Source of the DNA: Octopus vulgaris
Lineage: Eukaryota
NCBI GenBank assembly: GCA_951406725.2
Contig: OX597834.1
Coordinates: forward strand, 13,330,001 to 13,394,000
Direction: 5' to 3'
DNA: 64,000 bases
Translations under genes and position numbers: made by a program
Part shown: positions 4,917 through 33,973 of the stretch, piece after piece
How positions within the stretch are numbered: the stretch's first letter is position 1
How the letters are laid out: each line of letters begins with the position of its first letter
The notes under the pieces: model-generated
Database searches by the model: none
The model's input: the letters and a program-made list of their open reading frames with translations, nothing else
What the model was told of the DNA's origin: nothing

Positions 4917-5008
<92 letters not shown>

Positions 5009-5009
<1 letters not shown>

Positions 5010-5425
5010 ACTTATAAATAAGGGCAAGCGAAAATATTTCTAATGCCAAATATGCCGAAAATTGGACATATTATTCATTAACCATATAACTTTTTCACAT
5101 TACGCACGCTACTCGAAAAAAAGCCGACAGAAATTTCTAAAAATTCCATTATTACCATATCGGACCGATTTCAGGGTTAGTTCGTAAGAACCCTCCCTTC
5201 GTCAGCAATAAATGTGGCAAAGAAATAAATGGACGGAGGAAAGGCTGTTATAAGCTAACCCTGAAATCGGTCCGATATGGTAATAATGGAATTTTTTGAA
5301 ATATCTGTCGGCTTTTTTTCGAGTAGCGTGCGTATTGTGAAAAAGTTATATGGTAATTGACAATTTGTCCAATTTTCGGCATATTTGGCATTAGACAATT
5401 TTTCGTTTGCCCTTATTTATAAGTT
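5009..5425. mobile_element. (TA)n-flanked fold-back element, probable Penelope-like terminus
   Basis: Arms 5009-5180 and 5255-5425 with several mismatches; hammerhead motif spans left arm and loop. Confidence 0.7.
5150..5211 (-). ncRNA. Minimal type I hammerhead ribozyme motif
   Basis: CTGACGA AGGG..(GTTC ttac GAAC)..CCCT GAAA TCGG t CCGA TA; stem I weak (G-U rich). Confidence 0.7.
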
Positions 5426-5787
5426 GTTTATAATTTTTACCTATAAAGGTAATTTTTAATATGCTGGCCATTGATAATTTTTTTTTTCCGAAAAATATTT
5501 TATCCTACATTAAATATATTTATATATATATATATTCTCTGATGCTCCTCAGAATTAAACCTTTTCCATCAATGTTTTTTTTTTTCCCATTTGCCAAATC
5601 TGCTCGTTTTTGTTTGGATCAAATTCTATTTCTGTTCGTTTTGGTTTATATAGTGGAGCAAATATCTGTTGGTGTGTGCCTTATGTATTGCTGAATTAGA
5701 GATGATAGTTGGCTATCATTAACGGTTAAGGGTAATAAAACATCTGAATATTCAAAATGTGTTGAGGGCGCATGACCTAGTCTTTAC

Positions 5788-15412: not shown

Positions 15413-17556
15413 TTGTTGATATATATATTTACCTATGAGTATATGGATGTGTGTATTTATGTAAATATACATGTATGTAAAATTGTATGTGTGTATATCA
15501 TTGATAACTAATCTAGTGTCAAATAAAACGTGTTGAAATATGTGAATACGTGTAGAAATTATTTCTATTAACGAAATAACAATTCACAGCTTGACACTTC
15601 TCGCATACAGTTACAATACCAACGCAAAATACCTCTTATATTAATGTCTATCTTATTGCAAGCGTGTTCATAAATAAATTGTACAAACTTTAAAAAAAAA
15701 TATATCGATATATTCTATATACTACACAGTTATATGTTCATAAAGATATACGACTTGATATCAGCTTACGAATCAATATAATTTATATTTATTGTAATTC
15801 TCTGTATGATTATTTCGTCAGATAATATATCAATGTAATATACAAATATTAACTTAAATCTCCGTTCATTAACGAATTTGTCTGAATAATATTCTGAATA
15901 TTTGTTTAGGTATGGGTTGTTTTGGTTCCGGTAGATGTTTTATATTTGATAATTAATAAACTTATAACACTCGTTCACATACAAACACACATGCACACAA
16001 ACACACATAAATACACACATACAAACTGACGTAAATATACACACATGCCCGCAGACACACTCGCACGTTCACCGTTAAACAGTAAAACATACGTTTTTAT
16101 ATACATGTATACGTAGAAATTTACGTGTATGCCTATGTGTGTATGTGTGTGTGTTTTATGTATTTTTAGGCAAATAATTTACTCTAGATACATATACCTA
16201 TCTATCCTTACGTACATATATACGTACATAAATATGATACATGCATATCCGTATTATGTACGTCTCCGTATGTTAACATGCGTATTTCTCGATATTTTAT
16301 ATGGGCGGGTGTTTGTATGCGCGTGTATGTATGTGTTTCAATATGTGGAACGGAAATCAGTATATATTTGTAGCGCAAACTAATAGTTATACTGATATTA
16401 ATGCATAAAACTATTGTTACAATAAAATTTTTGCGATACATAGCCTGAATTTTCAAATTAATTTTGTTAATAAAGAACAATTTAGGAATAGAATATTATG
16501 TATACTGAATTTGTGTTTGGCACAAACACTTAAAATAATATATTGACTAATAATTTAATGTTTTTTTAAAAATATTTTCACATGACATTAAAATTTGAAT
16601 GACGTATATGTGTTTCGAATAGGAAAAATGTCTTCCGAAAGTGGTATTCACGAGGCTATATCATAGCGTATATTTTCCTATTAAAATACGTTAGAACTTA
16701 TATACCACTACAGTATGATAGTAGCAAAACTATCGTTTACCTCTCGTATTTACTGCAAACTACAGATTCAGTATAATTGATGTAAACTTAATCTTCGACT
16801 GTACTTGTCCACAAGGTAAATTCATAATAGTATGAAGTATTCTAAGAGCCTTTTTACTTACTTTCGGCGCCTGTTTTATTTCTATTATCTTATTTTTCCG
16901 ATTATTGCAATGAAAACATACAGAAGACATTGACCAAGTGGATTTTGAAGGAATATATCCAACGAAACACTAATTTGGAGCTATTTGAAAGAAAATATAA
17001 TCCCCTACACTTACATAAACCCTTATTCTTCACAATAGGTACGAGTGTGCATGTTTGTGCGTCGATGGGTATTTCTGTGTGTATTTATATAAAAACGCAG
17101 ATACAAACGGCCATAGAGGAGGAGATGAAGTTTCTTTATATAGAGAGGACAACGAAGCGCTCAGGACATTTGATCAATAGAAAAAAGAGGAAAATATTGA
17201 TGAGAAACAGAAGGCTGGTTACCCCAAAGCTTATAATAAAATATATTCCATTATAAAAATTGTGCACATAATCATACAATAAAAGAATATAGAAGTACTG
17301 GAGGAGATACACGGTGTTGCTAGGGATTAAAATGGTAATTATATATATAATAGAAATATAAAATTATATCTCTATAAAAAATTACGGCAGCGTTTACAAG
17401 ATAGAACATCCTAATTAATATAAGGTTATAATGGATACAGATCGTGTATCAATAGCTATCTTAAGGCGGTGGTCTCGGCCATTTGCAGCGATTATTCTTA
17501 TATCTATAAGAATGCCATATTAATATGGCGATAACAATTAATTATATATATATATA

Positions 17557-26748: not shown

Positions 26749-26852
26749 TTTTTTATCCAAGGGGAGGCAATAGGAGCAACAGCCACAGAAACACCACAAA
26801 ATTCAAAGATAGGCCAAACACATGCAAATCTTATATGCTAGTTTATATTTAT

Positions 26853-27268
26853 AATAATAGTTATCGCCATACTAATATGGCATTCTTATAAAAATAAGAA
26901 TAAAGCTGTCCGCTTATTAGCTCCATGAGGCCATCGCCTTAAGTTAGCTATTTGATACACAAACTGTATCCATATAACCTTCGAACAAGGGAGGTCAGTC
27001 GCTCCACACTACTTGACCGGCAGCTGCAGACGCGTTTCGGGGTATTGCCCCTTTTCAATGCAGCGTAGCCAGACCAGTAGGTGTCGCTTCTGACAATCTC
27101 TGTTCGAAGTAGTGTGGAGCGACTGACCTCCCTTGTTCGAAGGTTATATGGATACAGTTTGTGTATCAAATAGCTAACTTAAGGCGATGGCCTCATGGAG
27201 CTAATAAGCGGACAGCTTTATTCTTATTTTTATAAGAATGCCATATTAGTATGGCGATAACTATTATT
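26853..27268. mobile_element. Fold-back element: 162-bp arms, hammerhead in the 92-nt loop
   Basis: Arms 26853-27014 and 27107-27268 appear perfect; related solo terminus at 17422-17545. Confidence 0.85.
27023..27064 (-). ncRNA. Intact minimal type I hammerhead ribozyme (U3-A8 variant)
   Basis: GCTGCA TTGAAAA GGGG caata CCCC GAAA CGCG TC TGCAGC: 6-bp stem I, 4-bp stem II, palindromic stem III, GUC site. Confidence 0.88.
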
Positions 27269-27402
27269 TTCCGGGAACGCTGCCGTTGTTCTCTTTTAGA
27301 GAGACTTAGTAATTTTAATATTTCTATTATATTTATAATCTTTGGAGCACTTCTATTTCCAGTCCGTTGTATATCTTGAGTGTTGCTGTTACTCAAGATA
27401 TA

Positions 27403-33020: not shown

Positions 33021-33824
33021 TTGTTTTATTTTTATTTTTATAGCGTGCTTTCACTTCACTACCGAGCGCAGCTCTGTGTGCCTTGGGTATGTGCTGTGAT
33101 TTGTTGTGATGCTCTGATGGTTATTGTATGGAAAGTGTTCTGCGTAGGATGTGTGCAGTGCCTAGTAGTGCAATTTTCTGTATGTTATATGTGTTTGTAA
33201 GTCCTGGTGTTTTTGTTATGTATTTGTCTGAATATTTTTTTATCATGCCTAATGCACCTACTATGATAGGAATTGTTTCTGTTTTCAGATTCCACCTTCT
33301 AGTTACCTCTATTTCCAGGTCTTTGTATTTTGAGAGTTTCTCCATTTCTTTTAGAGACACGTTGTCATCTGCCGGTACTGATACATCAATTAGAAAGCAT
33401 TTTTTTCTTCATGGTCTCTGACAACTATATCTGGTCTGTTGGCCTTAATTTCCCTATCTGTGTGTATCGGCATATCCCAGAGTATGGTTGCTTTCTCGCT
33501 TTCTGTGACCTTTTCTTGTGTGTGCCTATACCATCTTTTTTCTGTTGTTATTCCATAATGTTGGCATAGCTTCCAATGTATGTAAGTTCCAACTCTGTCA
33601 TGTCTGTGAATATATTCCTTCTTAGCCAGGACTGGGCAGCTAGAGATAATATGATTTATTGTTTCTTGTCCATCTCCACATATTCTGCAGTTACTTGTAA
33701 TATTTCTTTTCATTACATGTCTTTGGTAATTTCTGGTGGGGAGGCTTTGGTCTTGTGCTGCAATTAAAAATCCCTCTGTTTCTGCTTTGAGTCCTGAGCT
33801 TCTCAACCATTGCTGGGATTTTTC
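33019..33824 (-). mobile_element. 5'-truncated R4/Dong-clade non-LTR retrotransposon in a (TAA)n tract
   Basis: ETEGFLIAAQDQ, CCHC knuckle CRICGDGQETINHIISSC, RHD, restriction-like endonuclease RPDIV..IDVSVP..EKLSKY, IIVGALG; one frameshift in a homopolymer near 33400. Confidence 0.92.
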
Positions 33825-33865
33825 TTCTTCTTCTTCTTCTTCTTCTTCTTCTTCTTCTTCTTCTT

Positions 33866-33973
<108 letters not shown>

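What the first reader, a model, noticed from the sequence alone, without database searches (positions are those of the whole stretch)
26853..27268. Pristine 42-nt hammerhead with U3-A8 core in the loop of a 162-bp hairpin
Seen: the minus strand reads GCTGCA-TTGAAAA-GGGG-caata-CCCC-GAAA-CGCG-TC-TGCAGC, with all three stems and a GUC site. The usual CUGANGA core is UUGAAAA, which preserves the known 3-8 base pair. The arms look identical, implying a recent insertion. Inference: the ribozyme is the unpaired part of the transcript and may still cleave, probably as a dimer through ACGCGU.
Basis: partly seen in the sequence, partly recalled or inferred. Interest (0 to 1): 0.8.

Follow-up and report, generated by a model that had tools for sequence, protein, structure and literature searches.

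The report
Retrozyme copy with Penelope-type inversion
The hairpin is one of well over a thousand copies of a 362-base repeat carrying a hammerhead ribozyme motif, and its mirror-image arms are likely a by-product of insertion by a Penelope-like retrotransposon enzyme, so the locus is ordinary, although the copies follow a strict two-end rule that may show how such enzymes insert.

Summary
In detail: 162-bp perfect arms and a 42-nt type I hammerhead with U3-A8 core, GUC site and ACGCGU palindrome. The framing is wrong. The insertion really spans 26853-27330 with a 13-nt target duplication and is a piece of a 361-364-nt tandem unit with at least 1,630 core copies in three subfamilies: a non-LTR retrozyme. 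Stems I, II, the palindrome and a long rod covary, and a natural tandem folds as the strand-swapped double hammerhead. The hairpin is rebuilt at each insertion (30 of 30 junctions distinct); a lone unpaired ribozyme occurs in 8 of 30. U3-A8 is published for Penelope-like elements (PMC4209133) and sits in this genome's own autonomous RT-GIY-YIG element (1,439 hits). The one sharper point: inverted copies use two fixed ends 62 nt apart, one each, 64 times against 1 same-end case, and all units of an insertion descend from one template. This fits an enzyme dimer priming both DNA strands on one circular RNA (inferred). Cleavage and expression are untested.

The parts
26843..26855 (+). Left copy of the 13-nt target-site duplication (last 3 nt shared with the element end)
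   Evidence: (L001)
26853..27109 (-). Arm 1: 257 nt of the repeat unit in ribozyme sense, unit positions 361 to 254, ending outward at fixed end site A
27023..27064 (-). Type I hammerhead: stem I 6 bp, core U3 (27058) / A8 (27053), stem II 4 bp with loop CAAUA, palindrome 27035-27030, predicted cut between 27029 and 27028
   Evidence: cut site by the standard hammerhead consensus (PMC7151607 passage)
27065..27067 (-). UAC bulge of stem I (opposite U at 27022), candidate tertiary contact with loop 2
   Evidence: resembles the Schistosoma internal loop 1 / CAAAUA loop 2 contact (PMC2632901 passages); contact not tested
27107..27109 (.). Head-to-head inversion junction with 3-nt microhomology
   Evidence: arms overlap at L001 1593-1595
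27107..27330 (+). Arm 2: 224 nt of the unit in sense, positions 93 to 316, no ribozyme, ending outward at fixed end site B
27269..27330 (+).
27327..27339 (+). Right copy of the 13-nt target-site duplication (first 4 nt shared with the element end)

Best explanation
This is one 478-base insertion of a 362-base hammerhead-bearing tandem repeat with more than 1,600 copies in the genome, likely a non-LTR retrozyme copied by a Penelope-like retrotransposon enzyme, and the hairpin likely arose during insertion. Shown: tandem unit, copy number, covarying ribozyme and rod, target duplication, (TA)n targets, head-to-head arms, two fixed outer ends A and B 62 nt apart used one per side, variable junctions, one template lineage per insertion, and an autonomous RT-GIY-YIG element in the same genome with a U3-A8 hammerhead and the same one-short-end, one-tail-end habit. 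Predicted: tandem transcripts fold into a strand-swapped double hammerhead through the 6-nt palindrome. Inferred: they self-cleave after GUC to monomers, are ligated to circles, and the enzyme nicks both strands of AT-rich DNA, primes one cDNA at A and one at B, and the two truncated cDNAs join head to head by microhomology. The window copy has a single ribozyme and would need a partner in trans; it is likely a dead end whose transcript, if any, is mostly long double-stranded RNA.
For: Unit 361-364 nt in arrays up to about 7.5 units (L092 2,736 nt); 1,098 + 532 core matches, controls 0; GC 41%; circular fold z about -6.0 and -6.9 for two subfamilies, with the ribozyme at the tip of a long rod; compensatory changes in stem I (AU 9, GC 9, GU 5), stem II (GC 14, AU 9), palindrome (GC 15, AU 7, GU 1) and two rod pairs, 94.8% cells paired against 32-44% for slid controls; double-hammerhead MFE for a natural tandem; 64 A+B, 1 B+B, 0 A+A among 65 inverted insertions with both ends at the fixed sites, of 104 distinct entries (31 to 1 without the sets found by the junction-spanning query, p 8e-9); 30 of 30 junction pairs distinct; autonomous 781-aa RT+GIY-YIG ORF with U3-A8 hammerhead in its end repeat and one short plus one tail end in 3 of 4 inverted pairs. 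Published architecture: inverted pLTR with a tail on one end only (PMC3846280, PMC8557442 passages), two RT start sites flanking the tail (PMC11167929), retrozymes 150-450 bp, GC <50%, TSD >4 bp (PMC7229834).
Against: No cleavage assay; only 1 of 9 Xenopus retrozyme dimers cleaved in vitro (bioRxiv 2026.07.22.740005) and PLE minimal hammerheads cleave weakly (PMC4209133). Rfam models do not match. The autonomous element's end repeat has no BLAST similarity to the unit, so the driver is not proven; shared features are only the core, the palindrome type of subfamily 3, a short CTATTAT-like end motif and the habit of insertion. Covariation comes from few events between related subfamilies. The tail here (62 nt) is longer than the 30-40 nt published. 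16 of 81 inverted insertions have one or both ends off the fixed sites.
Confidence: 0.85

Rival explanations
1. The unit is not an independent retrozyme but the amplified end repeat (pLTR) of an autonomous Penelope-like element that was not found, and the copies are 5'-truncated stumps of it.
Against: Arms run on as head-to-tail units for up to about 7.5 repeats with no ORF; 5'-truncated direct copies break off inside the unit; RT-like fragments near retrozyme loci (4 loci, 1) are not joined to the unit in sense where examined; three subfamilies kept the whole 362-nt unit and its circular fold.
Confidence: 0.1
2. The long hairpin is a selected scaffold at this locus that exposes a ribozyme for regulated cleavage of a host or element transcript.
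For: In the fold of this insertion stems I and II still form in the loop (probabilities 0.94-1.0).
Against: The same single-ribozyme anatomy is seen in 8 of 30 inverted insertions with arbitrary junctions; the copy is 99% identical to the family, so too young to show selection; no partner ribozyme in cis; a second ribozyme-in-a-hairpin of another family lies in the same window.
Confidence: 0.03
3. The family spreads as a DNA element with inverted ends (MITE-like) or by DNA-level fold-back, and the ribozyme is a passenger.
For: Perfect inverted arms with a target duplication resemble terminal inverted repeats.
Against: Junctions differ in 30 of 30 copies, 22 of 103 complete insertions have no inversion, the two ends are unequal (A and B), and the ribozyme covaries across subfamilies.
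Confidence: 0.02

Closest known systems
Metazoan non-LTR retrozymes (Cervera and De la Pena 2020, PMC7229834, passages and section 14 read; Li et al. 2026, bioRxiv 10.64898/2026.07.22.740005, parts 1-3 of 5 read)
   Same: Non-coding 150-450-bp tandem unit with one type I hammerhead per unit, GC <50%, TSD longer than 4 bp, self-paired circular fold, co-existence with autonomous PLEs; mussel units are about 350-390 bp.
   Different: Core is U3-A8; in my reading of these passages neither paper describes head-to-head inverted insertions or two fixed end sites for retrozymes ('inverted' occurs 0 times in PMC7229834). Circular RNA and cleavage are not shown here. No homologous pLTR parent found, unlike 24 of 57 Xenopus families.
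Endonuclease-bearing Penelope-like element insertions with inverted pLTR and tail (PMC3846280 and PMC8557442, passages; PMC11167929, parts 1-2 of 4)
   Same: Head-to-head inversion, tail on one end only, two fixed ends, AT-rich and (TA)n targets, 5' truncation, TSD of about 7-13 nt.
   Different: No ORF; tail 62 nt instead of 30-40; arms are multimers of a non-coding unit. In vitro PAc showed no difference of start site between strands, whereas these copies pair A with B almost without exception.
U3-A8 hammerheads of Schistosoma mansoni Cercyon PLEs (PMC4209133, parts 1-2 of 4 read)
   Same: U3-A8 covariation of the 3-8 core pair; about 1,300 hits there; palindromic stem III; pairs of ribozymes on opposite strands 100-700 bp apart.
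   Different: Those are minimal motifs with long helix II; this one has canonical proportions (stem I 6 bp, stem II 4 bp) with loop 2 CAAUA/CAAAUA and a UAC bulge like the canonical Schistosoma ribozyme (PMC2632901 passages).

Membership tests
Hammerhead ribozyme, type I | Core consensus with 3-8 pair, G12A13A14, A15-U16 pair and H17 | tested here: met
   U3-A8 in 23 of 23 aligned copies, A15.1-U16.1 in 23 of 23; consensus per PMC7151607 passage; U3-A8 accepted variant per PMC4209133
Hammerhead ribozyme, type I | Stems I and II supported by covariation | tested here: met
   Both-side changes in stem I and stem II; few independent events
Hammerhead ribozyme, type I | Stem III (monomer or dimer) | tested here: met
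   Not formed as monomer; formed as 6-bp intermolecular duplex in cofold and in a natural tandem MFE; palindrome covaries
Hammerhead ribozyme, type I | Match to an Rfam hammerhead model | tested here: not met
   No hammerhead family at E<=10 on 26990-27130
Hammerhead ribozyme, type I | Self-cleavage | not testable with these tools
   Needs in vitro assay
Non-LTR retrozyme | Tandem 150-450-bp non-coding unit with a type I hammerhead in each unit | tested here: met
   361-364 nt units, arrays of 2 to about 7.5; 13 of 30 inverted insertions have an arm with 2 or more ribozymes. The window copy itself is a partial monomer.
Non-LTR retrozyme | GC <50%, TSD longer than 4 bp | tested here: met
   GC 41%; 13 nt here, 8 nt in L012, 13 nt in L026; most others hidden in (TA)n
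Non-LTR retrozyme | Highly self-paired circular monomer | tested here: met
   Predicted only: z -6.0 and -6.9 against 60 shuffles each
Non-LTR retrozyme | Expressed as circular and linear RNA | tested here: inconclusive
   No run on record as RNA; contigs cannot show ends, strand or circles
Non-LTR retrozyme | Autonomous PLE partner in the genome | tested here: inconclusive
   Intact RT+GIY-YIG elements present with a U3-A8 hammerhead and the same end rule but no sequence homology to the unit
Autonomous Penelope-like element | RT plus GIY-YIG ORF between pLTRs | tested here: not met
   No such ORF in or joined to the insertion
Penelope-type insertion product | Head-to-head inverted arms, tail on one end, AT-rich target | tested here: met

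The most novel reading that the evidence does not exclude
One enzyme dimer binds one circular 362-nt retrozyme RNA, docks its two active sites on two start sites 62 nt apart, primes them from the two nicked DNA strands, and both run round the same circle with strand displacement. This would explain at once why inverted copies pair end A with end B 64 times to 1, why arm B runs through site A (29 of 30), why both arms can be multimers, and why mirror, offset and tandem units of an insertion are equally alike (0.71, 0.74, 0.82%). It would give a mechanism for the long-described but unexplained Penelope 'inverted repeat with a tail on one end', and genomic evidence for circular templates.
Probability: 0.35. 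Interest if true: 0.65.

Novelty: new member of a known kind. Interest (0 to 1): 0.33.

Why it matters
The locus itself is one of many dead insertions. The family is a young, abundant retrozyme with a U3-A8 core in canonical proportions, a handy natural substrate for testing that core. Its hundreds of insertions are also a clean record of how Penelope-like enzymes integrate: the strict A+B pairing and the single-template signature make a named open question (how the inverted repeat and one-sided tail form, PMC8557442 passage) testable with the existing in vitro system.

Tried and rejected
Rfam scan of the window gave only microsatellite-driven miRNA hits among the 150 of 308 listed; local scan no hammerhead. 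The first genome search used a query spanning the inversion junction, so loci L001-030 and L093-098 are biased towards similar inversions; counts are given with and without them. A first motif filter missed other copies because they carry a wobble in stem I. Search for a cognate autonomous parent: no homology between the unit and 12 fetched stretches around GIY-YIG hits and variant cores; 4 variant-core hits (L119, L121, L122, L129) have poor stems and look like an older unrelated or decayed repeat; two same-strand ribozyme pairs 3.9 and 8.7 kb apart held no ORF hit; L127 is an ordinary insertion beside an old ORF fragment. RNA: no RNA holder listed; contigs of 4 runs guessed to be RNA cover parts of the unit but cannot show expression, ends or circles; not used as evidence. 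Gene conversion between arms as the cause of arm identity was rejected: mirror pairs are no more alike than offset pairs (Fisher p 0.85). A heterogeneous linear multimer template is disfavoured but not excluded (mirror against tandem p 0.49; small differences cannot be seen; columns are not independent). Literature searches for twin priming in Penelope, inverted retrozymes, and an octopus retrozyme listed no paper that by title or abstract describes this family or the A+B rule; the library lacks most subscription papers and supplements were not read, so Repbase-type annotation may exist. No kinetic paper on U3-A8 was found.

Full report
Observation. The arms 26853-27014 and 27107-27268 are 162 nt and fully complementary with 92 nt between. 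The minus strand 27064-27023 carries the 42-nt motif as described. Stems I and II fold with probabilities 0.94-1.0 in the insertion, with flanks, and in a monomer circle; the 2-bp stem III does not form alone. Rfam has no hammerhead match here. The host is a 2.8-Gb, microsatellite-rich genome; size, contig number and repeats look like an octopus (my inference, from no call).

What it belongs to. The own genome holds many copies. Mapping them shows a 361-364-nt head-to-tail unit. The 34-nt core has 1,098 exact matches, a third subfamily 532, reversed controls 0. Subfamilies lie about 96-99%, 84-87% and 77-86% from the reference unit. Most copies sit in (TA)n.

Is the ribozyme under selection? 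On 23 chosen copies from three subfamilies, 94.8% of cells pair, against 32-44% for slid controls; both-side changes occur in stem I, stem II, the palindrome centre and the rod; U3-A8 never varies. These are few events among relatives, so the shuffle control overstates them. The unit folds as a circle far better than shuffles (z -6.0, -6.9; the reverse strand also folds well, z -5.5), with the ribozyme at the tip of a rod of about 60 bp. Two 42-mers cofold as the strand-swapped dimer (-35.9 against 2 x -14.9 kcal/mol), and a natural tandem has this double hammerhead as its MFE. Loop 2 (CAAUA, CAAAUA in part of subfamily 3) and a UAC bulge resemble the Schistosoma tertiary contact (PMC2632901 passages).

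Where the hairpin comes from. Of 126 loci, 104 distinct entries remained after dropping duplicates; 1 was cut by N, 22 are direct and 81 inverted, all head to head. In the two sets taken in genome order (first 30 core hits on contig 1, twice) 30 of 47 complete insertions are inverted. Outer ends cluster at unit 244-259 (A) and 309-319 (B). Of 65 inverted insertions with both ends at these sites, 64 are A+B, 1 B+B, 0 A+A; 16 others have an end elsewhere. Without the sets found by the junction-spanning query the count is 31 to 1 (p 8e-9). In 30 of these 31 (one locus with two insertions left out) all junction pairs differ, arm B passes site A in 29, and 8 hold exactly one complete ribozyme, as the window does. 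So the hairpin is rebuilt at each insertion and the ribozyme's place in the loop is an accident of where arm 2 stopped. This is the published Penelope anatomy: inverted pLTR with a tail on one end (PMC3846280; PMC8557442), the tail lying between two RT start sites (PMC11167929).

One template per insertion. In 39 young insertions the two arms differ by 0.68%, arms of different insertions by 2.1%; 58 non-majority letters are shared by both arms, 55 are in one arm only. In 25 young arrays mirror, offset and tandem comparisons give 0.71, 0.74 and 0.82% (p 0.85 and 0.49). This fits a monomer circle read round and round, as proposed for retrozymes (PMC7229834 passage), and argues against arm homogenisation by conversion; a young homogeneous linear multimer is not excluded.

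The likely driver. GIY-YIG search gave 150 scored hits of 6,136 candidates, many in 781-aa frames; one is RT plus GIY-YIG. Its end repeat carries a U3-A8 hammerhead with an ACAUGU palindrome, the same core and palindrome as retrozyme subfamily 3, 1,439 pattern matches. It ends in (TA)n at two sites about 30-36 nt apart, and 3 of 4 inverted pairs have one short and one tail end, the fourth being interrupted. It has no BLAST similarity to the unit, so the partnership is inferred.

Comparison and verdict. Works like, and by the testable features is, a non-LTR retrozyme (PMC7229834; bioRxiv 2026.07.22.740005); not an autonomous PLE. U3-A8 and opposite-strand ribozyme pairs are already reported for Schistosoma PLEs (PMC4209133). 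Against activity: 8 of 9 Xenopus dimers did not cleave; PAc's ribozyme needs protein and is not required for insertion in vitro. Expression is not shown. My searches listed no description of this family or of the A+B rule, but supplements and subscription papers were not seen. The locus is ordinary; the family is a new member of a known kind; the end-pairing and single-template statistics are the part worth following. Interest 0.33.

Noticed in passing
window 5001-5431: A second, older inverted insertion (432-nt self-match, 86%) of another family with a C3-G8 hammerhead (core at 5205, minus strand) at its centre.
   Followed up: partly
window 17347-17543: Decayed (about 80%) copy of the same retrozyme family, inverted with B and A ends, without the ribozyme.
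   Followed up: partly
L134 406-1482 and 1745-4087: The autonomous Penelope-like element has a 359-aa open frame upstream of the 781-aa RT-GIY-YIG frame, with no Pfam match over cut-off; many intact 781-aa copies suggest recent activity.
   Followed up: partly
L152 830-2025: Both arms of an inverted insertion join retrozyme sequence to the antisense start of a PLE ORF (68% over a short stretch), a possible template switch or chimera between retrozyme and PLE RNA.
   Followed up: no
L138 1321-4483: A different PLE family (46% protein identity) with a perfect 766-bp head-to-head inversion around a truncated ORF.
   Followed up: no
L012 flanks: This array sits inside another repeat with an 8-nt duplication; the host repeat looks like a further hammerhead-bearing element (recalled, not tested).
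   Followed up: no
L001-L030 junctions: Many junctions in the biased set fall near unit 115-130 and 335-363, the two halves of the rod's outer 11-bp stem, suggesting RT stops or annealing at this structure.
   Followed up: no
window 33390-33893 (minus): Open frame resembling the C-terminal part of a non-LTR retrotransposon protein (recalled resemblance).
   Followed up: no
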